A program made the position numbers and the translations under genes. Positions 53,202 through 64,000 of a stretch of 64,000 nt of DNA are shown piece by piece. Position 1 is the first letter of the stretch, and each line of letters begins with the position of its first letter. The notes beneath the pieces were generated by a model. It was not told the origin of the DNA and made no database searches. It was given only the letters and a program-made list of their open reading frames with translations. The stretch is taken from NCBI RefSeq assembly GCF_056712565.1, contig NZ_CM160072.1, one strand, 5' to 3'.

Positions 53202-54627
53202 TAATGCCGATCAGTTAAGGATCAGTTGACCGATCCAGTGGCTGTGTAAGAATCCGGAAACGCTCACTTGTTTCCGGATTTTTTTATGCACATTGGACAG
53301 GCTCTTGATCTGGTATCCCGTTACGATTCTCTGCGTAACCCACTGACTTCTCTGGGGGATTACCTCGACCCCGAACTCATCTCTCGTTGCCTTGCCGAAT
53401 CAGGTACTGTAACGCTACGCAAGCGCCGTCTTCCCCTCGAAATGATGGTCTGGTGTATTGTTGGCATGGCGCTTGAGCGTAAAGAACCTCTTCACCAGAT
53501 TGTGAATCGCCTGGACATCATGCTGCCGGGCAATCGCCCCTTCGTTGCCCCCAGTGCCGTTATTCAGGCCCGCCAGCGCCTGGGAAGTGAGGCTGTCCGC
53601 CGCGTGTTCACGAAAACAGCGCAGCTCTGGCATAACGCCACGCCGCATCCGCACTGGTGCGGCCTGACCCTGCTGGCCATCGATGGTGTGTTCTGGCGCA
53701 CACCGGATACACCAGAGAACGATGCAGCCTTCCCCCGCCAGACACATGCCGGGAACCCGGCGCTCTACCCGCAGGTCAAAATGGTCTGCCAGATGGAACT
53801 GACCAGCCATCTGCTGACGGCTGCAGCCTTCGGCACGATGAAGAACAGCGAAAATGAGCTTGCTGAGCAACTTATAGAACAAACCGGCGATAACACTCTG
53901 ACGTTAATGGATAAAGGTTATTACTCACTGGGACTGTTAAATGCCTGGAGCCTGGCGGGAGAACACCGCCACTGGATGATACCTCTCAGAAAGGGAGCGC
54001 AATATGAAGAGATCAGAAAACTGGGTAAAGGCGATCATCTGGTGAAGCTGAAAACCAGCCCGCAGGCACGAAAAAAGTGGCCGGGACTGGGAAATGAAGT
54101 GACTGCCCGCCTGCTGACCGTGACGCGCAAAGGAAAAGTCTGCCATCTGCTGACGTCGATGACGGACGCCATGCGCTTCCCCGGAGGAGAAATGGGGGAT
54201 CTGTACAGTCATCGCTGGGAAATCGAACTGGGATACAGGGAGATAAAACAGACGATGCAACGGAGCAGGCTGACGCTGAGAAGTAAAAAGCCGGAGCTTG
54301 TGGAGCAAGAGCTGTGGGGTGTCTTACTGGCTTATAATCTGGTGAGATATCAGATGATTAAAATGGCGGAACATCTGAAAGGTTACTGGCCGAATCAACT
54401 GAGTTTCTCAGAATCATGCGGAATGGTGATGAGAATGCTGATAACATTGCAGGGCGCTTCACCGGGACGTATACCGGAGCTGATGCGCGATCTTGCAAGT
54501 ATGGGACAACTTGTGAAATTACCGACAAGAAGGGAAAGGGCCTTCCCGAGAGTGGTAAAGGAGAGGCCCTGGAAATACCCCACAGCCCCGAAAAAGAGCC
54601 AGTCAGTTGCTTAACTGACTGGCATTA
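53202..54627 (+). mobile_element. IS4 insertion sequence, 1426 bp
   Basis: 18-bp terminal inverted repeats TAATGCCGATCAGTTAAG / CTTAACTGACTGGCATTA (16 of 18 match), 442-aa IS4-type transposase, 13-bp direct repeats. Confidence 0.9.
53286..54614 (+). CDS. insG: IS4 transposase (DDE)
   Basis: Start at [22 protein letters not shown] (442 aa). Confidence 0.9.
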
Positions 54628-54819: not shown

Positions 54820-55215
<396 letters not shown>

Positions 55216-55238
55216 TCCTTTATATTGAGTGTATCGCC

Positions 55239-55264
55239 AACGCGCCTTCGGGCGCGTTTTTTGT
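55239..55264 (+). terminator. raiA terminator
   Basis: aacgcgcc-ttcg-ggcgcgtt followed by tttttt. Confidence 0.6.
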
Positions 55265-55318
55265 TGACAGCGTGAAAACAGTACGGGTACTGTACTAAAG
55301 TCACTTAAGGAAACAAAC

Positions 55319-55366
55319 ATGAAACACACACCGTTTTTCTTCGCATTCTTTTTTACCTTCCCCTGA
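55319..55366 (+). CDS. pheL: pheA leader peptide (Phe-rich attenuation peptide)
   Basis: atg…tga encodes MKHTPFFFAFFFTFP*, seven Phe in 15 aa. Confidence 0.85.
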   Translation: MKHTPFFFAFFFTFP

Positions 55367-55414
55367 ATGGGAGGCGTTTCGTCGTGTGAAACAGAATGCG
55401 AAGACGAACAATAA

Positions 55415-55444
55415 GGCCTCCCAAATCGGGGGGCCTTTTTTATT
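55415..55444 (+). terminator. pheA attenuator terminator
   Basis: aggcctccc-aaatc-ggggggcct followed by ttttttt, between pheL and pheA. Confidence 0.7.
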
Positions 55445-55464
55445 GATAACAAAAAGGCAACACT

Positions 55465-56625
55465 ATGACATCGGAAAACCCGTTACTGGCGCTGCGAGAG
55501 AAAATCAGCGCGCTGGATGAAAAATTATTAGCATTACTGGCAGAGCGACGCGAACTGGCCGTCGAGGTGGGAAAAGCCAAACTGCTCTCGCATCGCCCGG
55601 TACGTGATATTGATCGTGAACGCGATTTGCTGGAAAGATTAATTACGCTCGGTAAAGCGCACCATCTGGACGCCCATTACATTACTCGCCTGTTCCAGCT
55701 CATCATTGAAGATTCCGTATTAACTCAGCAGGCTTTGCTCCAGCAACATCTCAATAAAATTAATCCGCACTCAGCACGCATCGCTTTTCTCGGCCCCAAA
55801 GGTTCTTATTCCCATCTTGCGGCGCGCCAGTATGCTGCCCGTCACTTTGAGCAATTCATTGAAAGTGGCTGCGCCAAATTTGCCGATATTTTTAATCAGG
55901 TGGAAACCGGCCAGGCCGACTATGCCGTCGTACCGATTGAAAATACCAGCTCCGGTGCCATAAACGACGTTTACGATCTGCTGCAACATACCAGTTTGTC
56001 GATTGTTGGCGAGATGACGTTAACTATCGATCATTGTTTGTTGGTCTCCGGCACTACTGATTTATCCGCCATCAATACGGTCTACAGCCATCCGCAGCCA
56101 TTCCAGCAATGCAGCAAATTCCTTAATCGTTATCCGCACTGGAAGATTGAATATACCGAAAGTACGTCTGCGGCAATGGAAAAGGTTGCACAGGCAAAAT
56201 CACCGCATGTTGCTGCGTTGGGAAGCGAAGCTGGCGGCACTTTGTACGGTTTGCAGGTACTGGAGCGTATTGAAGCGAATCAGCGACAAAACTTCACCCG
56301 ATTTGTGGTGTTGGCACGTAAAGCCATTAACGTTTCTGACCAGGTTCCGGCGAAAACGACGTTGTTAATGGCGACCGGACAACAAGCTGGTGCACTGGTT
56401 GAAGCGTTGCTGGTACTGCGCAATCACAGTCTGATTATGACCCGTCTGGAATCACGTCCGATTCACGGTAATCCGTGGGAAGAGATGTTTTATCTGGATA
56501 TTCAGGCCAATCTTGAATCAGCGGAAATGCAAAAAGCATTGAAAGAGTTAGGGGAAATCACCCGTTCGATGAAGGTATTGGGCTGTTACCCAAGTGAGAA
56601 CGTAGTGCCTGTTGATCCAACCTGA
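55465..56625 (+). CDS. pheA: Chorismate mutase / prephenate dehydratase
   Basis: 386 aa. Confidence 0.95.
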
Positions 56626-56667
56626 TGAAAAAGTGCCGGATGATGTGAATCATCCGGCACTGGATTA

Positions 56668-57789
56668 TTACTGGCGATTGTCATTCGCCTGACGCAATAA
56701 CACGCGGCTTTCACTCTGAAAACGCTGTGCGTAATCGCCGAACCAGTGCTCCACCTTGCGGAAACTGTCAATAAACGCCTGCTTATCGCCCTGCTCCAGC
56801 AGCTCAATCGCCTCGCCGAAACGCTTATAGTAACGTTTGATTAACGCCAGATTACGCTCTGACGACATAATAATGTCGGCATAAAGCTGCGGATCCTGAG
56901 CAAACAGTCGCCCGACCATCGCCAGCTCAAGGCGGTAAATCGGCGAAGAGAGCGCCAGTAGTTGCTCAAGCTGAACATTTTCTTCTGCCAGGTGCAGCCC
57001 ATAAGCAAAAGTAGCAAAGTGGCGCAGAGCCTGAATAAACGCCATATTCTGATCGTGCTCGACAGCGCTAATACGATGCAACCGAGCGCCCCAGACCTGA
57101 ATTTGCTCCAGAAACCATTGGTATGCTTCCGGCTTACGTCCATCACACCAGACCACAACTTGCTTTGCCAGGCTACCGCTGTCCGGGCCGAACATCGGGT
57201 GTAACCCCAGCACCGGGCCATCGTGCGCCGCCAGCATGGCCTGTAATGGTCCATTTTTCACCGATGCCAGATCAACCAGAATACAATCTTTCGGTAAAGG
57301 CGGTAATTTGCCGATAACTTGCTCAGTAACGTGGATGGGCACACTAACAATCACCATTCCGGCATCGGAAACAATATCAGCCGCTCGATCCCAGTCATGT
57401 TGCTCCAGAATCCGCACCTGATAACCCGAGAGTGTCAGCATCTTCTCGAACAGACGTCCCATCTGACCGCCACCACCGACGATAACCACCGGGCGCAGTG
57501 ACGGACAAAGCGTTTTAAATCCTTTGTCGTTTTCACTGGAGTAAGATTCACGCATCACCCGACGCAAAACATCCTCAATCAGATCTGGCGGTACACCCAG
57601 AGCTTCCGCCTCTGCACGACGCGAGGCCAACATAGATGCCTCGCGCTCCGGAACATAAATAGGCAGTCCAAAGCGGCTTTTCACCTCGCCCACTTCAGCA
57701 ACCAGTTCCAGACGCTTCGCTAATAAATTCAGCAGCGCTTTATCGACTTCATCAATTTGATCGCGTAATGCGGTCAATTCAGCAACCAT
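56668..57789 (-). CDS. tyrA: Chorismate mutase / prephenate dehydrogenase
   Basis: 373 aa. Confidence 0.95.
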
Positions 57790-57799
57790 AATAAACCTC

Positions 57800-58870
57800 T
57801 TAAGCCACGCGAGCCGTCAGCTGCCCGTTCAGATCCTGATGAATTTCACGCAGCAAGGCATCGGTCATTTCCCAGCTAATGCAGGCATCGGTTACGGATA
57901 CACCGTATTTCATTTCACTGCGCGGTTGCTCGGAAGACTGATTGCCCTCGTGGATATTACTTTCGATCATCAGACCAATAATTGAGCGATTGCCATCTTT
58001 GATTTGAGCAACCACGGATTCTGCCACCGCAGGCTGACGGCGATAATCTTTATTGGAATTACCGTGGCTGCAATCTACCATCAGAGACGGGCGCAGTCCC
58101 GCCTGTTCCATCTCTTTTTCACATTGCGCAACATCCGCAGGGCTATAGTTTGGCGCTTTACCACCGCGCAGGATCACATGCCCGTCCGGATTCCCCTGAG
58201 TTTGTAGCAACGCAACCTGCCCTGCCTGGTTAATGCCAACAAAACGGTGCGGCTGGGCGGCGGCACGCATAGCGTTAATTGCCGTTGCCAGACTGCCATC
58301 GGTGCCGTTTTTAAAACCAACCGGCATGGAAAGCCCGGAGGCCATTTCACGGTGAGTTTGCGATTCCGTTGTACGAGCACCAATTGCTGACCAGCTAAAC
58401 AGATCGCCCAGGTATTGCGGGCTATTCGGATCTAACGCTTCCGTCGCCAGTGGCAGTCCCATATTCACCAGCTCAAGCAGCAATTTACGCGCGATCTGCA
58501 GCCCGGCTTCTACATCAAAAGAGCCATCCATATGGGGATCGTTAATTAACCCTTTCCAGCCGACAGTGGTACGGGGTTTTTCAAAATAGACGCGCATTAC
58601 CAGATAGAGGCTATCGCTGACCTCTGCGGCAAGGGCTTTAAATCGACGAGCATATTCCAGAGCAGTTTCCGGATCATGAATGGAACAAGGACCACATACT
58701 ACCAGCAGACGAGGATCGCGCCCGGCGATAATATCTGAAATGGTTTTACGCGAGTCAGCAATCTGGGCTTCTTGTTGCAGGCTTAATGGAAAAGCGGCCT
58801 TCAGTTGTTCCGGAGTCATTAAAACCTGTTCGGCGGTAATATGTACGTTATTCAGCGCGTCTTTCTGCAT
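57800..58870 (-). CDS. aroF: Tyrosine-sensitive DAHP synthase
   Basis: Start at [15 protein letters not shown] (356 aa). Confidence 0.95.
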
Positions 58871-59016
58871 GATGGCGATCCTGTTTATGCTCGTTTGCGA
58901 TAGTTGATCCTCAGCGAGGATGACGTAACGATAACACATAAAGTAAAGTTTTCAATCCATATTTCGTACACATTTCTTTACATAAGCAATTTATTCGCGC
59001 TTTTTCCCCTTATTTC

Positions 59017-59034
59017 TGTATAAATAAATTTACA
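59017..59034. promoter_or_regulatory. TyrR box (TGTAAA-N6-TTTACA-like) in the aroF upstream region
   Basis: tgtataaataaatttaca; a second, weaker box lies near 58955-58975. Confidence 0.5.
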
Positions 59035-59079
59035 CCAGCTTTAAAAACAATCCGCTATGCTTTGAAAAAGGAGAAAGAA

Positions 59080-59445
59080 ATGATGAAAAAATTTATCGCC
59101 CCCTTGTTGGCTTTACTGGTTAGCGGATGTCAGATTGATCCTTATACTCACGCGCCAACCTTGACCAGCACCGACTGGTATGATGTTGGTATGGAAGATG
59201 CGATATCGGGCAGCGCCATTAAAGATGACGATGCATTTAGCGATTCACAGGCGGATCGCGGTCTATACCTTAAAGGATATGCCGAAGGGCAAAAGAAAAC
59301 TTGCCAGACCGATTTTACTTATGCCCGGGGACTTTCTGGTAAAAGCTTTCCTGCCAGCTGCAATAATGTTGAAAATGCCAGCCAACTGCATGAAGTATGG
59401 CGAAAAGGGGCTGATGAAAATGCCAGCACAATACGATTAAATTAA
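59080..59445 (+). CDS. yfiL: Lipoprotein YfiL
   Basis: Start at MMKKFIAPLLALLVSGCQ with lipobox (121 aa). Confidence 0.8.
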   Translation: MMKKFIAPLLALLVSGCQIDPYTHAPTLTSTDWYDVGMEDAISGSAIKDDDAFSDSQADRGLYLKGYAEGQKKTCQTDFTYARGLSGKSFPASCNNVENASQLHEVWRKGADENASTIRLN

Positions 59446-59593
59446 TTACCCCCCCAAAATCAATTAAGCATGAGATTTTACTCATTATGTTTTATTTTTC
59501 ACATTGATGACGACCGCATGAAAGGATGATATTTTAATGAGCATTCTGAAAAAATATCGATGCATTTCGAGCGAAGATGGTGAGGATCCCTGA

Positions 59594-60112
59594 ATGCGTT
59601 TTTCTCACCGACTGTTCTTACTGCTGATTCTCCTGCTGACGGGAGCACCAATACTCGCTCAGGAACCTTCTGACGTTGCGAAAAACGTGCGTATGATGGT
59701 TTCCGGTATTGTCAGTTACACCCGCTGGCCTGGGCTATCAGGGCCACCAAAGTTATGTATCTTTTCATCTTCACGTTTTAGTACCGCCTTACAAGAAAAT
59801 GCTGCTACATCTTTGCCTTATCTGCCTGTCATCATTCATACTCAACAAGAGGCGATAATTTCAGGCTGCAATGGTTTTTATTTTGGCAACGAGTCACCGA
59901 CATTCCAGATGGAATTAACCGAACAATATCCGTCAAAGGCGTTATTATTAATTGCCGAACAAAATACCGAGTGCATTATTGGTAGCGCCTTTTGTCTGAT
60001 CATCCACAATAATGACGTCAGATTTGCCGTAAACCTGGATGCTTTATCTCGTAGCGGTGTAAAAGTCAACCCGGATGTCTTAATGCTCGCACGGAAGAAA
60101 AATGATGGATAA
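59594..60112 (+). CDS. yfiR: Periplasmic repressor YfiR of the YfiN diguanylate cyclase
   Basis: 172 aa with signal peptide; conserved yfiRNB operon. Confidence 0.85.
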
Positions 60113-61328
60113 CGATAATTCTCTTAATAAGCGCCCCACGTTTAAAAGAGCATTACGCAACATCAGTATGACCAGCATATTTATCACTATGATGCTGATC
60201 TGGCTGCTGCTTTCCGTGACGTCAGTGCTGACCCTGAAACAGTACGCGCAAAAAAACCTGGCACTGACAGCAGCAACAATGACTTACAGTCTGGAAGCAG
60301 CTGTCGTTTTTGCCGATGGCCCTGCAGCAACTGAAACACTGGCAGCGCTGGGCCAGCAAGGCCAATTTTCAACTGCAGAAGTGCGTGATAAGCAGCAAAA
60401 TATTCTGGCATCCTGGCATTACACCCATAAGGAACCAGGCGATACTTTCAGCAATTTCATAAGCCACTGGCTCTTCCCTGCCCCCATCATTCAGCCGATT
60501 CGCCACAATGGTGAAACTATTGGCGAAGTACGCTTAACTGCTCGCGACAGTTCAATCAGCCATTTTATCTGGTTTTCGCTCGCTGTCCTGACCGGTTGTA
60601 TTCTGCTGGCATCAGGCATCGCAATTACCCTCACCCGCCATTTGCACAATGGCCTGGTGGAAGCGCTGAAAAATATCACCGATGTCGTACATGATGTGCG
60701 TTCTAACCGCAATTTTTCCCGACGAGTTTCGGAAGAACGTATCGCTGAGTTTCACCGCTTCGCTCTCGACTTCAACAGTCTGCTGGATGAAATGGAAGAG
60801 TGGCAGCTTCGTTTACAGGCCAAAAATGCGCAGCTTCTACGTACCGCGCTACATGACCCATTAACCGGGCTGGCTAACCGCGCAGCGTTTCGTAGCGGCA
60901 TCAACACGTTGATGAACAATTCCGATGCCCGAAAAACGTCGGCGTTACTATTTCTTGATGGCGATAATTTCAAATATATCAATGATACCTGGGGTCATGC
61001 GACGGGCGATAGAGTCTTGATTGAAATAGCAAAACGGTTAGCTGAATTTGGCGGGCTGCGACATAAAGCATACCGCCTGGGCGGCGATGAATTCGCTATG
61101 GTGCTCTATGATGTACAGTCGGAATCTGAAGTGCAGCAGATATGCTCAGCACTGACACAAATTTTTAATCTCCCGTTTGATCTTCATAATGGCCATCAAA
61201 CTACCATGACATTAAGCATTGGTTACGCGATGACTATTGAGCACGCCTCTGCGGAAAATTTACAAGAGCTTGCCGATCACAATATGTATCAGGCCAAACA
61301 CCAGCGTGCCGAAAAGCTGGTGAGATAA
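60102..61328 (+). CDS. dgcN: Diguanylate cyclase YfiN/DgcN (TM-HAMP-GGDEF)
   Basis: 408 aa; GGDEF-domain active-site motif present as RLGGDEF. Confidence 0.9.
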
Positions 61329-61343
61329 CAAGGATATATCGAT

Positions 61344-61826
61344 ATGATAAAGCACCTGCTAGCACCCCTGATTTTCACCTCGCTAATACTTACTGGCTGC
61401 CAGTCCCCTCAGGGAAAGTTTACTCCTGAGCAAGTCGCCGCTATGCAATCTTATGGATTTACTGAATCCGCCGGCGACTGGTCGCTGGGCTTATCAGATG
61501 CCATTCTGTTTGCAAAAAATGACTACAAATTGCTCCCGGAAAGCCAGCAACAGATCCAAACCATGGCAGCCAAATTGGCCTCGACAGGGCTAACACATGC
61601 CCGTATGGATGGACACACCGACAACTATGGTGAAGACAGTTACAACGAAGTCTTATCATTGAAACGGGCGAATGTCGTGGCCGATGCATGGGCTATGGGT
61701 GGACAAATTCCGCGCAGCAATCTCACCACACAGGGTTTAGGAAAAAAATATCCCATAGCCAGTAACAAGACCGCCCAGGGCCGCGCCGAGAACCGCCGCG
61801 TCGCAGTGGTGATTACAACCCCTTAA
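61344..61826 (+). CDS. yfiB: OmpA-family outer-membrane lipoprotein YfiB
   Basis: 160 aa; lipobox LTGCQS; OmpA-like C-terminus. Confidence 0.9.
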   Translation: MIKHLLAPLIFTSLILTGCQSPQGKFTPEQVAAMQSYGFTESAGDWSLGLSDAILFAKNDYKLLPESQQQIQTMAAKLASTGLTHARMDGHTDNYGEDSYNEVLSLKRANVVADAWAMGGQIPRSNLTTQGLGKKYPIASNKTAQGRAENRRVAVVITTP

Positions 61827-61998
61827 AACACGAGCAAACAGACAAAAAAAGGGCCAGCCAATTGGCCAGCCCTTCTTAACAGGATGTCGCTTAAGCGAAA
61901 TCTTAGTTAAGACGCTCCTATTAACACCCCGCAACAAACAAACGCTTACCATATAAAACAATTAGTTAAAGTAATTTTTAATGCAATGAATTGCAGTG

Positions 61999-63048
61999 TT
62001 ATGCAACCTCTGCCGCCATATTGTCGCCAACATACAGCGATAACGGATTAAGGGTTACAGCTTGTTCAAGGTGGTCAGGAGCAAAGTGTGCATACTTCAT
62101 TGTTTCTCGAATATTGGCATGCCCGAGAATTTTCTGCAGTACCAGTATATTCCCGCCGTTCATCATAAAATGCGCACCAAAAGTATGACGCAAAACGTGC
62201 GTCTTCTGCCCTTCCGTCAATTCAATATTCGTTAGTTTGAGCATCTTCTTAAACTCCTGATAGCAGGGTTTAAACATTCTGCCTTGACGTACGGACAACT
62301 CGTCGTACAGCCATTTAGGAATAGGAACTGTGCGATTCTTCTTACCTTTGGTTTTGGTGAACGTCAGTTTATATGGAGAAAGTTGAGGGCGGGTCAATCT
62401 CTCCGCTTCCCCCCATCGAGCGCCGGTTGCAAGGCACACCTTAACAATCATGGTGAGGTCTTCTTTGCCGTATTGCTCGCAGGCTCGAAACAGCTCCGGG
62501 AGCTGAGACAAAGTTAGCCAGGACATTTCTTTCTCAGCCTCTTTGAATACTCGGATCCCATCAAGTGGATTGGGTAGGCTCCACTCCCCTAACCGGCGGA
62601 GCTCATTAAACACTGCTTCTAGGTATTGTTGTTCGCGATTGACGGTTATAGGTTTGGCGATCCATTTCGAGGGGTCTTTATGATAACCGTTGTCTATTTC
62701 ACCACGTAATCGACGGTCACGATAATGAGCCCAGTCTTTCGCGGTAAGGCGAGATGCAATCGGGTCACCAAGCCCATTACATACGATTTGAAGCTTTGCT
62801 AACCTCGACTTACTGGCGACTAACGCTTGACCGTGCAAATTGTGCCAAAGCTGAATAATCTCGCTTAAGCGTCGGCGGTCTTCTTTCTTGCCAAGCCACG
62901 GCTTATCTTCACTCTCGCTTTTGGTAAATGCTTCGAATGCCTCGGCCTCACCTTTGGTATTGAATTGCCGACGTATACGCCGCCCTTCTCGACCATTTGG
63001 ATAGAGCTCGCATAACCATTTGCCATTTTTTTGCTTACTTACAGTCAT
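61999..63048 (-). CDS. int: Tyrosine integrase, phage 186/P2 type
   Basis: 349 aa; MTVSKQKNGKWLCELYPNGREGRRIRRQF…, …CLATGARWGEAERL…, …HVLRHTFGAHFMMNGGNILVLQKILGH…YAHFAP… closely parallels 186/P2 Int as recalled. Confidence 0.85.
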   Translation of the reverse strand: MTVSKQKNGKWLCELYPNGREGRRIRRQFNTKGEAEAFEAFTKSESEDKPWLGKKEDRRRLSEIIQLWHNLHGQALVASKSRLAKLQIVCNGLGDPIASRLTAKDWAHYRDRRLRGEIDNGYHKDPSKWIAKPITVNREQQYLEAVFNELRRLGEWSLPNPLDGIRVFKEAEKEMSWLTLSQLPELFRACEQYGKEDLTMIVKVCLATGARWGEAERLTRPQLSPYKLTFTKTKGKKNRTVPIPKWLYDELSVRQGRMFKPCYQEFKKMLKLTNIELTEGQKTHVLRHTFGAHFMMNGGNILVLQKILGHANIRETMKYAHFAPDHLEQAVTLNPLSLYVGDNMAAEVA

Positions 63049-63070
63049 AATGTCACCGAGGCAACTCTAA

Positions 63071-63409
63071 TTATTCGCAAAGTGCTGTTGCGGCATCCAT
63101 TACAGGATCCAAAGGAATTTTTACACCTGCATACTCTGGACTGTCTTTCCAAACAGCATCAATATTGCTCCCCTCAAGCTTTCCAGACTTTACTCCATCA
63201 ATAGCAAAACCATTTAATGGGTATCGGTCATCAGTTGCTTTGTCGTATACAAAGGCATACTTACCGTTAACGCAAGACACCGTAGCTTTTTCAAAAGTTA
63301 ACGGCCAATCCTCACCAAACTTAGCGCCATCTAAATCCTGTGTTTTTTCAGCGGCTAAGGAGCCAAAAGAAAAGGTAAGAAGCATAGCTAAAAAGAGTTT
63401 ACGTTTCAT
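63071..63409 (-). CDS. Small exported protein of unknown function (prophage cargo between int and repressor)
   Basis: Start taken at MKRKLFLAMLLTFSFGSLAA (signal peptide, no lipobox); mature ~90 aa with two Cys; sits in the int-cI lysogenic transcription unit. Start codon is inferred; the track ORF extends further upstream. Confidence 0.55.
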   Translation of the reverse strand: MKRKLFLAMLLTFSFGSLAAEKTQDLDGAKFGEDWPLTFEKATVSCVNGKYAFVYDKATDDRYPLNGFAIDGVKSGKLEGSNIDAVWKDSPEYAGVKIPLDPVMDAATALCE

Positions 63410-63417
63410 AATTTCCC

Positions 63418-63984
63418 TTATACGTGTTTTTCCAATGTGAAAACTACAACCCCGGCAGGCGTAATGTCGGTAATGTTGCATTCAAACTCAGCAGACTTAT
63501 TTGACAACCTGACTTTTCCACCAGGTAAACGAATTACATCAAAAACATCAAGAGCGCCGTCGATATCAATTAACCAGCGACCATTACTTATATTCGAAGC
63601 AGAACAGTCGACAAGCCAAGAGGCAGCTACACCGTCAACAAAAATCAATTCCCCTGAGTTAGAAGGAATCATTGAGGGGTCAGGATGCCACGTTCCTGCA
63701 TCCTTAAGCTCACCAGATTCAAGACGAGATTTTTTAATAGAAAAACCAGATGTGACATCTTCCCTGTTAGCTCGCATTTGCCCCTTGCCTGTTGCTAACC
63801 ATTCCAGTGACGTATCGGTATCAAGAGCGCATGTAACAACAACATCACCAGGGAAAAAATCTCGCCTTACCCATGTGCTAATTGTGCCAGAGGAAATGCC
63901 GAGCAAATCACCGAGCTCCTTTTGCATGGTAAAGCCATACGCATCAAGAATCCTACGCAAAACGGTTTTACCACCATTCGTCAT
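63418..63984 (-). CDS. Phage CI-type repressor (N-terminal HTH, C-terminal oligomerisation domain), 186 CI-like
   Basis: 188 aa; N-terminus LRRILDAYGFTMQKELGDLLGISSGTISTWV is an HTH; size and position match 186 cI. Confidence 0.7.
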   Translation of the reverse strand: MTNGGKTVLRRILDAYGFTMQKELGDLLGISSGTISTWVRRDFFPGDVVVTCALDTDTSLEWLATGKGQMRANREDVTSGFSIKKSRLESGELKDAGTWHPDPSMIPSNSGELIFVDGVAASWLVDCSASNISNGRWLIDIDGALDVFDVIRLPGGKVRLSNKSAEFECNITDITPAGVVVFTLEKHV

Positions 63985-64000
63985 AATCTCGTCATAAAGC

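What the first reader, a model, noticed from the sequence alone, without database searches (positions are those of the whole stretch)
61827..64000. 186/P2-family prophage integrated directly downstream of yfiB, at a non-tRNA site
After the yfiB terminator the sequence enters a phage lysogeny module (186-like Int, cargo ORF, CI-like repressor) where I recall K-12 continuing into rplS. Only ~2 kb of the element is inside the window. The remainder is where P2-family accessory hotspots, often carrying anti-phage systems, would lie.
Basis: partly seen in the sequence, partly recalled or inferred. Interest (0 to 1): 0.6.

Follow-up and report, generated by a model that had tools for sequence, protein, structure and literature searches.

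The report
PSP3-like P2-family prophage in rplS end
The last 2 kb of the window is the left end of an ordinary PSP3/186-type (P2-family) prophage that has inserted into the last codons of the ribosomal protein gene rplS, next to yfiB, bringing its own replacement gene end and terminator.

Summary
After yfiB (61344-61826) the host sequence runs to 61917. From 61918 the window holds phage DNA: a tyrosine integrase (61999-63048, minus), a periplasmic DUF2511/YebY-like gene (63071-63409, minus), and a 186-type CI repressor cut by the window end (63418-64000, minus).

Int is 91% and CI 98% identical to Salmonella phage PSP3, and 51% and 32% to phage 186.

The site is not merely "downstream of yfiB". 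The 13-bp core AGTTAAGACGCTC (61905-61917) is the last four codons of rplS plus one base of its stop codon. A 15-bp rplS remnant stays at attL. The phage supplies a new stop codon (TAA to TGA) and a new terminator at attR, so the L19 protein is unchanged.

The site is empty in 5297 of 5425 complete E. coli genomes. Four genomes with flanks identical to the window carry one identical, complete 31.4-kb prophage ending at rplS.

A PsP3-like prophage at "yfiN-rplS" is already reported in Salmonella, so this is a new member of a known kind.

The accessory genes in the proxy prophage match no known defence model. They include an uncharacterised, widely conserved membrane-protein plus HIT-enzyme gene pair.

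The parts
61344..61826 (+). yfiB (OmpA-family lipoprotein). This is the host gene on the left flank and is not part of the element.
   Evidence: ORF. RefSeq annotation of the identical sequence.
61846..61877 (-). Original host terminator of the rpsP-rimM-trmD-rplS operon. It is a 14-bp stem followed by a T-run on the minus strand. Integration has separated it from rplS, and it now lies downstream of the phage int gene.
   Evidence: Terminator scan. The same hairpin sits between yfiB and rplS at the empty site.
61903..61917 (-). Remnant of the rplS 3' end left at attL: TTAGTTAAGACGCTC, which on the minus strand reads GAG CGT CTT AAC TAA (E R L N stop). The 13-bp core shared by attL, attR, attB and PSP3 attP is 61905-61917.
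   Evidence: Sequences. Exact-match search: the core occurs once in the window, twice in L001 (attL and attR), once at the empty site and once in PSP3 attP.
61918..62032 (.). Phage arm of attL. It carries two 186-type Int arm-binding repeats, TGCCGCCAT (62011-62019) and TGTCGCCAA (62022-62030), which overlap the last codons of int.
   Evidence: Motif scan found 5 sites in the 303-bp reconstructed attP, against 0.8 per kb in the whole prophage. The 3-left plus 2-right layout matches the phage 186 annotation and the published consensus tgccGCCActt (PMC3448106).
61999..63048 (-). Tyrosine integrase, 349 aa.
   Evidence: 91% identical to PSP3 Int and 51% to 186 Int, including the conserved ATGARW, HVLRHTF and LGH...Y catalytic-region motifs. 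NCBIfam tyrosine-recombinase hits.
63071..63409 (-). DUF2511/YebY-like secreted protein, 112 aa, with an N-terminal signal-like sequence MKRKLFLAMLLTFSFGSLA. It lies between cI and int in the lysogenic operon.
   Evidence: Pfam PF10709 at E=2.7e-17. PDB 7n0j YebY at E=3.7e-7 with both cysteines aligned. Conserved at this position in PSP3, Midge and RCIP0057.
63418..64000 (-). 186-type CI immunity repressor. Only the C-terminal 194 of 286 codons are inside the window; the N-terminal 92 codons lie beyond 64000.
   Evidence: The full-length protein in L001 is 98% identical to PSP3 CI and 32% to 186 CI over its whole length.

Best explanation
Window 61918-64000 is the attL end of a temperate P2-family phage of the 186/PSP3 subgroup (Peduoviridae, Eganvirus-like).

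Integration. The phage's tyrosine integrase recombined the phage attP with a bacterial attB that consists of the last 13 nt of the rplS (ribosomal protein L19) reading frame: four codons plus the first base of the stop codon. The phage attP carries its own copy of the rplS end, encoding ...E-R-L-N-stop, followed by a diverged copy of the rplS 3' untranslated region with a terminator hairpin.

Consequences for the host. After integration rplS still encodes an identical L19 protein. It now ends in a phage-derived TGA stop codon and phage terminator at attR. The original TAA stop, a 15-bp rplS remnant and the original terminator are stranded at attL, next to yfiB. There they lie just downstream of int and probably terminate the cI-orf-int lysogenic transcript.

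Genes in the window. In the lysogen CI represses lytic genes. The small DUF2511 periplasmic protein is probably co-expressed with it.

Shown versus inferred.
- Shown: the junction, the core, the arm sites, homology to PSP3 and 186, the empty site in most strains, and unchanged L19 in lysogens.
- Inferred by proxy: that the window's own genome continues into the same complete 31.4-kb prophage. This is taken from four genomes with identical flanks.
- Inferred only: activity of Int, the terminator swap, inducibility, and any function of DUF2511 or the accessory genes.
For: 1. Junction mapped to the base. Genomes with an empty site match the window only up to 61917. PSP3 matches from 61901 onward.

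2. Core and stop codon.
- attL reads aatcTT-AGTTAAGACGCTC-ctatt.
- attR reads ttatc-AGTTAAGACGCTC-tttgat.
- attB reads aatcTT-AGTTAAGACGCTC-tttgat.
- The stop codon is TAA at the empty site and TGA in the lysogen.
- The L19 accession WP_000065253.1 is the same in the lysogen and in a non-lysogen.

3. Coding constraint on attP. The attP sites of three phages all encode E-R-L-N-stop despite nucleotide differences: PSP3 has TTAGTTAAGACGCTC, Midge has TTAGTTCAGACGCTC, and this prophage has TCAGTTAAGACGCTC.

4. The phage arm to the left of the core resembles the host rplS downstream region. The alignment score is 16.5 against 4.4 +/- 1.9 in 1000 shuffles (maximum 12). This arm contains a terminator-like hairpin at L001 32428-32454, minus strand.

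5. Five TG(C/T)CGCCA arm-type repeats are arranged three to the left and two to the right of the core, as annotated for 186.

6. Protein identities: Int 91% to PSP3 and 51% to 186; CI 98% to PSP3 and 32% to 186.

7. Completeness by proxy.
- Four genomes with flanks identical to the window (SF-468, MS15052, APEC E18055, 10035004-3) have 100% identical prophage DNA over the 25 kb tested.
- In MS15052 the prophage is a complete P2-type gene set ending at rplS.
- It has a cos site identical to that of 186 and PSP3, and about 24.9 kb aligns to PSP3 at 80-93% identity.

8. Occupancy. The site is intact in 5297 of 5425 complete E. coli genomes with a match. The attL arm seen here is present in 65-67 genomes.

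9. Literature. A PsP3-like 31.1-kb prophage, phiSPU2, is listed with insertion site 'yfiN-rplS' in Salmonella Pullorum (PMC6449608, Table 1).
Against: - Only 2.1 kb of the element is inside the window, so the rest is inferred from other genomes.
- No complete genome in the collection matches the whole window. The four prophage-bearing relatives lack a 1.4-kb insertion that the window has at 53202-54627. The window's strain is therefore not one of them, and its prophage could differ or be truncated.
- The exact core is only 13 bp, which is short compared with the 36 bp that 186 shares with ileY.
- Nothing here tests recombination, excision, transcription termination or induction experimentally.
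Confidence: 0.9

Rival explanations
1. In the window's own genome the int-DUF2511-cI module is only a cryptic remnant. The structural and replication genes have been deleted, so it is no longer a functional prophage.
For: The window ends at 64000, so nothing beyond cI can be seen. The window's strain is not among the complete genomes searched, because it has an extra 1.4 kb at 53202-54627. At least one other genome (C51) has a rearranged or partial P2-like element abutting rplS.
Against: All four genomes with identical flanks carry the same complete prophage at 100% identity. int, DUF2511 and the visible part of cI are intact ORFs with 0 mismatches to those genomes. No pseudogene flags appear in the proxy annotation.
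Confidence: 0.07
2. The element inserted in neutral intergenic DNA between yfiB and rplS. The overlap with rplS is a coincidence of a short repeat and has no functional meaning.
For: The shared exact core is only 13 bp. The repeat finder at default-like settings did not flag it.
Against: The core is the last four sense codons of rplS plus one stop-codon base. The stop codon itself changes from host TAA to phage TGA. Three different phage attP sequences preserve the E-R-L-N-stop reading despite synonymous or stop-codon changes. The phage arm also mimics the rplS 3' UTR and terminator beyond chance. This is the pattern expected when attP must regenerate the target gene's end.
Confidence: 0.03
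3. The module belongs to a satellite or integrative island, such as a P4-like or PICI-like element, that merely borrows a P2-type integrase and is not a P2-family phage.
For: Integrase-proximal modules of satellites and phages can look alike when only 2 kb is visible.
Against: The gene order int-orf28-cI and the nucleotide sequence are colinear with phage PSP3 at 87% identity. They are 100% identical to full-length prophages and to the GenBank record Escherichia phage vB_EcoM-613R3. No satellite hallmark genes are present.
Confidence: 0.01

Closest known systems
Salmonella phage PSP3 (PsP3; NC_005340; Peduoviridae, Eganvirus)
   Same: - Same order: attP, int, DUF2511 gene (orf28), cI, then a divergent early operon.
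- Int is 91% identical and CI 98% identical, which implies the same immunity.
- The attP carries the same core TTAGTTAAGACGCTC.
- The cos site is identical, and about 24.9 kb aligns at 80-93% nucleotide identity.
   Different: - The host here is E. coli (ExPEC/ST95-like background).
- The stop codon in the attP core is TGA rather than TAA.
- Tail-fibre genes differ and all accessory loci differ.
- The proxy prophage has a 313-aa HEPN-like gene in place of PSP3 gp38, a 334-aa zincin-like gene between cos and Q, and a membrane-protein plus HIT pair between S and V.
- The PSP3 integration site was not listed in the 2011 survey of P2-like phages (PMC3448106, Table 1).
Coliphage 186 (NC_001317)
   Same: - Same family architecture: 186-type Int (51% identity) and CI (32% identity).
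- Int arm-site repeats are arranged three to the left and two to the right of the core.
- A lysogenic-operon terminator lies beside attP.
- attP duplicates the 3' end of the target gene.
- Tum/DinI-type SOS module and an identical 19-nt cos.
   Different: - 186 integrates into the 3' end of tRNA-Ile genes (ileY/ileX) with a 36-bp common sequence. This phage targets a protein-coding gene with a 13-17-bp core.
- 186 has orf69 between int and attP and no DUF2511 gene.
- 186 CI has one N-terminal DNA-binding domain; the PSP3-type CI has two in tandem.
phiSPU2, a PsP3-like prophage of Salmonella Gallinarum biovar Pullorum (PMC6449608)
   Same: It is a 31.1-kb P2-type prophage, 90% identical to PsP3, with insertion site reported as 'yfiN-rplS'. 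That is the same chromosomal locus.
   Different: - It is in a different species.
- The paper gives the site only at the level of flanking genes.
- It describes neither the overlap with the rplS reading frame, nor the core, nor the terminator exchange.
Prophages that insert into the 3' end of a protein-coding gene and carry a replacement end, such as e14 and phage 21 in icd (from general knowledge; not tested here)
   Same: The logic is the same: attP holds a copy of the target gene's 3' end, so the host protein is preserved after insertion.
   Different: The target gene differs (rplS, the last gene of an essential ribosomal operon). The duplicated coding part is much shorter (4 codons). The phage family is unrelated.

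Membership tests
P2-family temperate phage, 186/PSP3 subgroup (Peduoviridae, Eganvirus-like) | A 186-type tyrosine integrase lies next to the attachment site. | tested here: met
   51% identity to 186 Int over 337 aa and 91% to PSP3 Int. The int stop codon is 81 bp from the core.
P2-family temperate phage, 186/PSP3 subgroup (Peduoviridae, Eganvirus-like) | The repressor is of the 186 CI type (not the P2 C type) and is co-oriented with int. | tested here: met
   32% identity to 186 CI across its length and 98% to PSP3 CI. Both genes are on the minus strand.
P2-family temperate phage, 186/PSP3 subgroup (Peduoviridae, Eganvirus-like) | 186-type arm-binding repeats (consensus tgccGCCActt / YAYCGCCAYTY) flank the core. 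| tested here: met
   Three sites left and two sites right of the core, all in the same orientation. The consensus comes and the 186 annotation. Only the two right-hand sites are inside the window.
P2-family temperate phage, 186/PSP3 subgroup (Peduoviridae, Eganvirus-like) | P2-type late gene order (Q-P / O-N-M-L-X-Y-K ... FI-FII-E-T-U-D-ogr), the A replicase and cos. | not testable with these tools
   These lie outside the window. They are met in all four genomes with identical flanks, and cos is identical to that of 186 and PSP3 at L001 9986.
P2-family temperate phage, 186/PSP3 subgroup (Peduoviridae, Eganvirus-like) | Produces infectious myovirus particles and is SOS-inducible via Tum. | not testable with these tools
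   TumA-like and DinI/TumB-like genes are present in the proxy.
Site-specific integration into the 3' end of a host gene with an attP-borne replacement end | An identical core is present at both prophage ends and at the empty site. | tested here: met
   AGTTAAGACGCTC is found at attL, attR, attB and PSP3 attP. The empty site is present in 5297 of 5425 genomes.
Site-specific integration into the 3' end of a host gene with an attP-borne replacement end | The core overlaps the gene's end and the gene product is preserved. | tested here: met
   The core is the last 4 codons of rplS plus the first base of the stop codon. The L19 accession is identical in a lysogen and a non-lysogen, and the stop codon changes from TAA to TGA.
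DUF2511 / YebY family | Match to the Pfam PF10709 profile and to the YebY sequence. | tested here: met
   Pfam E=2.7e-17. 7n0j YebY E=3.7e-7. Function is unknown.
Known anti-phage defence systems (PADLOC-DB v2.0.0) | Any accessory protein of the proxy prophage matches a defence-system profile. | tested here: not met
   Eight accessory proteins gave no match at E<=0.01. Five distant homologues of the membrane-protein/HIT pair gave no match at E<=0.1.
HEPN ribonuclease superfamily (for the 313-aa hotspot protein; outside the window) | A conserved Rx4-6H motif in an all-helical domain. | tested here: inconclusive
   - R246-N-D-x-F-H251 is invariant in 30 homologues.
- The motif region has low model confidence.
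- No member gives a Pfam hit.
Zincin metallopeptidases (for the 334-aa protein next to cos; outside the window) | An HExxH motif plus a further glutamate, on a thermolysin/M1-like fold. | tested here: met
   - H138-E-x-x-H142 and E145 are invariant in 25 homologues.
- The AlphaFold model has pLDDT 90.
- Catalysis is untested.
HIT (histidine triad) superfamily (for the 214-aa protein between S and V; outside the window) | The HxHxHxx motif and profile matches. | tested here: met
   The motif is HAHIHCV. Pfam hits are CwfJ_C_1 at 2.3e-6, DcpS_C at 4.8e-6 and HIT at 2.5e-4.

The most novel reading that the evidence does not exclude
The most novel reading concerns the part of the prophage that lies just outside the window and is inferred from identical relatives. 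Its accessory loci may hold anti-phage systems that no current catalogue recognises.

The strongest candidate is a tightly coupled two-gene operon: a roughly 170-aa four-helix membrane protein followed by a 214-aa HIT-family nucleotide hydrolase or transferase. This pair is conserved from E. coli to Vibrio, Burkholderia, Halomonas and Pantoea. It is found in the S-V site and in the gpA-gpQ defence hotspot of P2-like prophages, and also next to a Wadjet system.

Within the window itself, the DUF2511/YebY-like periplasmic protein, co-transcribed with CI, could be a lysogenic-conversion or exclusion factor.
Probability: 0.3. Interest if true: 0.55.

Novelty: new member of a known kind. Interest (0 to 1): 0.2.

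Why it matters
For genome annotation, this fixes the boundaries and attachment chemistry of a recurrent E. coli/Salmonella prophage site. About 2% of complete E. coli genomes have the yfiB-rplS site occupied.

It also shows that a 186-type integrase, a group usually associated with tRNA targets, here uses the end of an essential ribosomal protein gene. In doing so it swaps the operon's stop codon and terminator for phage copies. That is a tidy example of a known strategy, not a new principle.

The practical leads are the uncharacterised accessory genes of this prophage lineage: the membrane-protein plus HIT pair, a HEPN-like protein and a zincin-like protein beside cos. All sit in positions where P2-like phages are known to carry defence systems, and they could be tested directly.

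Tried and rejected
- The repeat finder with a 12-nt seed and 14-nt minimum did not report the att core, because the core is only 13 bp. It was found by reading the two junctions and confirmed by exact search.
- Literature searches for rplS + 'P2-like' + 'integration site' and for rplS + prophage + yfiB returned nothing. One search failed on a term that was too short.
- The site was finally found in a table of PMC6449608.
- PADLOC, NCBIfam and Pfam gave nothing useful for the 313-aa and 334-aa proteins or for the membrane partner.
- Profile searches of PDB sequences gave only chance-level hits: ribonucleotide reductase R2 at E about 0.02, and FliD and galactokinase. I discount these.
- tblastn of the HIT protein against 50,697 phage records found nothing.
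- A search for 'HIT domain' + 'anti-phage' + 'defense system' found no paper.
- I considered whether the 313-aa and 334-aa genes form one system. I rejected that because cos lies between them and distant homologues of each occur alone.
- I tried to identify the window's source genome. No complete genome in the collection has both the insertion at 53202-54627 and the prophage.
Full report
**What is in the window**

The ORF list and sequence show the following, left to right:
- yfiB at 61344-61826 (+);
- a hairpin whose T-run is on the minus strand at 61846-61877;
- three co-oriented minus-strand genes:
  - a 349-aa integrase (61999-63048);
  - a 112-aa ORF (63071-63409) that matches Pfam DUF2511 at E=2.7e-17 and the solved E. 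coli YebY structure 7n0j at E=3.7e-7;
  - a CI-type repressor that begins at 63418 and runs off the window end.

ARAGORN finds no tRNA or tmRNA in 55000-64000.

**Identity of the element**

- Megablast against phage records finds ten hits. A 100% match is 'Escherichia phage vB_EcoM-613R3'. This is a partial-genome record that still includes dgcN and yfiB, so it is a prophage-derived entry. PSP3 and SEN1 match at 87%.
- Int is 91% identical to PSP3 Int and 51% to 186 Int.
- The full-length CI, taken from an identical genome, is 98% identical to PSP3 CI and 32% to 186 CI. The prophage should therefore share immunity with PSP3.
- The DUF2511 gene sits between cI and int in PSP3, Midge and Klebsiella phage RCIP0057 as well. 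It is a conserved gene of this lineage rather than variable cargo. Phage 186 lacks it.

**The attachment site**

- K-12-type genomes have yfiB followed, after 75 bp, by the end of rplS on the opposite strand (L002).
- Genomes with an empty site align with the window only up to 61917. PSP3 homology starts at 61901.
- The junctions read as follows:
  - attL: ...aatcTTAGTTAAGACGCTC|ctattaac...
  - attR in E. coli MS15052: ...gttatcAGTTAAGACGCTC|tttgatacg...
  - empty site: ...aatcTTAGTTAAGACGCTCtttgatacg...
- The shared 13-bp core AGTTAAGACGCTC occurs once in the window (61905-61917), at both ends of the prophage in L001, once at the empty site and once in PSP3 attP.
- On the minus strand, TTAGTTAAGACGCTC reads GAG CGT CTT AAC TAA, the last four codons and stop of rplS.
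- In the lysogen rplS ends ...AARIKERLN-TGA, so the stop codon is phage-derived. The L19 protein accession is the same in lysogen and non-lysogen.
- Phage Midge carries TTAGTTCAGACGCTC in its attP. This is a synonymous Leu change that still encodes E-R-L-N-stop.
- Together with the TAA (PSP3) and TGA (this prophage) variants, this shows that attP is constrained to regenerate the end of rplS.

**Arms and terminators**

- The reconstructed attP has five TG(C/T)CGCCA repeats in one orientation: three to the left of the core and two to the right. In the window the right-hand pair is at 62011-62019 and 62022-62030, inside the last codons of int.
- This matches the published 186-type arm consensus (PMC3448106) and the 3+2 arrangement annotated for 186.
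- The background frequency of the motif in the prophage is 0.8 per kb on both strands.
- The phage DNA to the left of the core resembles the host region downstream of rplS more than chance allows: score 16.5 against 4.4 +/- 1.9 in 1000 shuffles, none reaching it. It contains a terminator-like hairpin on the rplS strand at L001 32428-32454.
- After integration rplS is therefore followed by a phage stop codon and phage terminator. The original rplS terminator (window 61846-61877) now lies just downstream of int.
- That these hairpins actually terminate the respective transcripts is inference.

**The rest of the prophage (by proxy)**

- Window 61300-64000 is 100% identical to four complete genomes: SF-468, MS15052, APEC E18055 and 10035004-3. 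Window 61344-64000 has 0 mismatches in 2657 bases against MS15052.
- In MS15052 the element runs from the attL core to an attR core 31,360 bp away and ends at rplS.
- It contains an apl/cox-position gene, cII, fil, the A replicase, TumA and DinI-like genes, portal, terminase, capsid, lysis, tail and baseplate genes and ogr. No pseudogene flags are present.
- The 19-nt cos is identical to that of 186 and PSP3, and about 24.9 kb aligns to PSP3 at 80-93% identity.
- All four genomes are 100% identical over the 25 kb of prophage tested.
- However, none of them is the window's own strain. The window has an extra 1,426 bp at 53202-54627, between bamD and raiA, that they lack. Genomes that do have that insertion have an empty rplS site.
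- The continuation of the prophage in the source genome is thus highly likely but not shown.

**How common is it, and is it known?**

- The yfiB-rplS junction is intact in 5297 of 5425 complete E. coli genomes with a match. About 128 genomes have it split, and 65-67 of those carry this attL arm.
- Other occupants of the site include a variant with a 269-aa gene between attL and int and a rearranged P2-like element.
- The 2011 survey of P2-like phages gives no integration site for PsP3. It notes that 186-type integrases tend to use tRNA genes (PMC3448106).
- A 2019 study lists a PsP3-like prophage of Salmonella Pullorum at 'yfiN-rplS' (PMC6449608, Table 1).
- The locus is therefore already reported. 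I did not find the base-level anatomy described: the core inside rplS, the stop-codon exchange and the terminator exchange.

**Accessory genes (outside the window; proxy only)**

- No protein from the variable regions matches PADLOC v2.
- The exact gpA-gpQ locus is catalogued as all 'hypothetical' in the supplement of Rousset et al. 2022 (PMC9122126). That paper defines this region as a defence hotspot. A 2026 preprint adds further P2 hotspots.
- cos lies between two of these genes.
- Upstream of cos is a 313-aa protein.
  - It has an invariant RNDxFH motif.
  - The HEPN assignment is suggestive, not secure.
- Between cos and Q is a 334-aa protein.
  - It has an invariant HExxH..E motif and a confident model with pLDDT 90.
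- Distant homologues of both proteins occur as single genes in variable islands.
- Between S and V lies an overlapping two-gene operon: a four-helix membrane protein plus a HIT-family protein with the HAHIH motif.
- The same pair, with the same overlap, occurs in several other settings:
  - in Vibrio, Burkholderia and Halomonas, in the last case beside JetABCD/Wadjet;
  - in the gpA-gpQ hotspot of a Pantoea P2-like prophage.
- The membrane partner is 56-58% identical across these genera.
- The pair is present in only 7 of 5426 complete E. coli genomes and in no sequenced phage record.
- This distribution is what one expects of a mobile defence cassette, but no function has been tested.

**Verdict**

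It is an ordinary, probably intact PSP3-like P2-family prophage at a locus already noted in the literature.

Interest is low for the prophage itself. The only leads of wider interest are the uncharacterised accessory genes, which lie beyond the window.

Noticed in passing
L001 20110-21229 (minus strand; proxy prophage, between P2 genes S and V). Homologous pairs at L009 5463-6642, L011 5396-6642, L013 5493-6633 and L024 5487-6645.: This is a conserved overlapping two-gene operon. It encodes a roughly 160-200-aa protein with four hydrophobic helices, followed by a 214-aa HIT-family protein with the HAHIH motif and an N-terminal CxxC. It occurs in P2-like prophages of E. coli (S-V site) and Pantoea (gpA-gpQ hotspot), next to Wadjet in Halomonas, and in Vibrio and Burkholderia. 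There is no PADLOC match, and no paper linking HIT domains to anti-phage defence was found. It is present in 7 of 5426 E. coli genomes.
   Followed up: partly
[not shown]
   Followed up: partly
[not shown]
   Followed up: partly
window 63418-64000, continuing to L001 3508 (the cI gene): The PSP3-type CI (286 aa) contains two tandem copies of the 186-CI N-terminal helix-turn-helix domain. Residues 17-76 and 106-165 both align to 186 CI residues 13-72. 186 CI (192 aa) has only one. Only the second copy is inside the window.
   Followed up: no
window 53202-54627: A 1,426-bp insertion lies between bamD and raiA, flanked by a roughly 13-bp duplication. It is annotated as an IS4-family element in other genomes. 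It is absent from all four genomes that share the window's prophage junction, and present in related genomes whose rplS site is empty. No complete genome in the collection matches the whole window.
   Followed up: partly
L007 700-735 (Escherichia phage Midge attP): The Midge attP core is TTAGTTCAGACGCTC. It differs from the E. coli rplS end by a synonymous Leu codon change (CTT to CTG). This suggests that its usual host has that rplS allele, or that one mismatch in the core is tolerated.
   Followed up: no
L023 5049-5858 (E. coli FDAARGOS_1253, same rplS site): A related prophage carries an extra 269-aa hypothetical gene between attL and int. This is the minor 'att-int' cargo position described for P2-like phages. 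The window's prophage has only 81 bp there.
   Followed up: no
L022 3349-4135 (E. coli C51): At the same site, P2-like tail-fibre genes and a degraded helix-turn-helix pseudogene directly abut rplS. This indicates a rearranged or partly deleted relative of the prophage.
   Followed up: no
window 63071-63481: The mechanical ORF for the DUF2511 gene extends to an upstream ATG (136 aa) and overlaps the end of cI. The 112-aa form starting MKRKLF..., used by RefSeq and by the PSP3 and Midge annotations, begins with a signal-peptide-like sequence and is the likelier start.
   Followed up: partly
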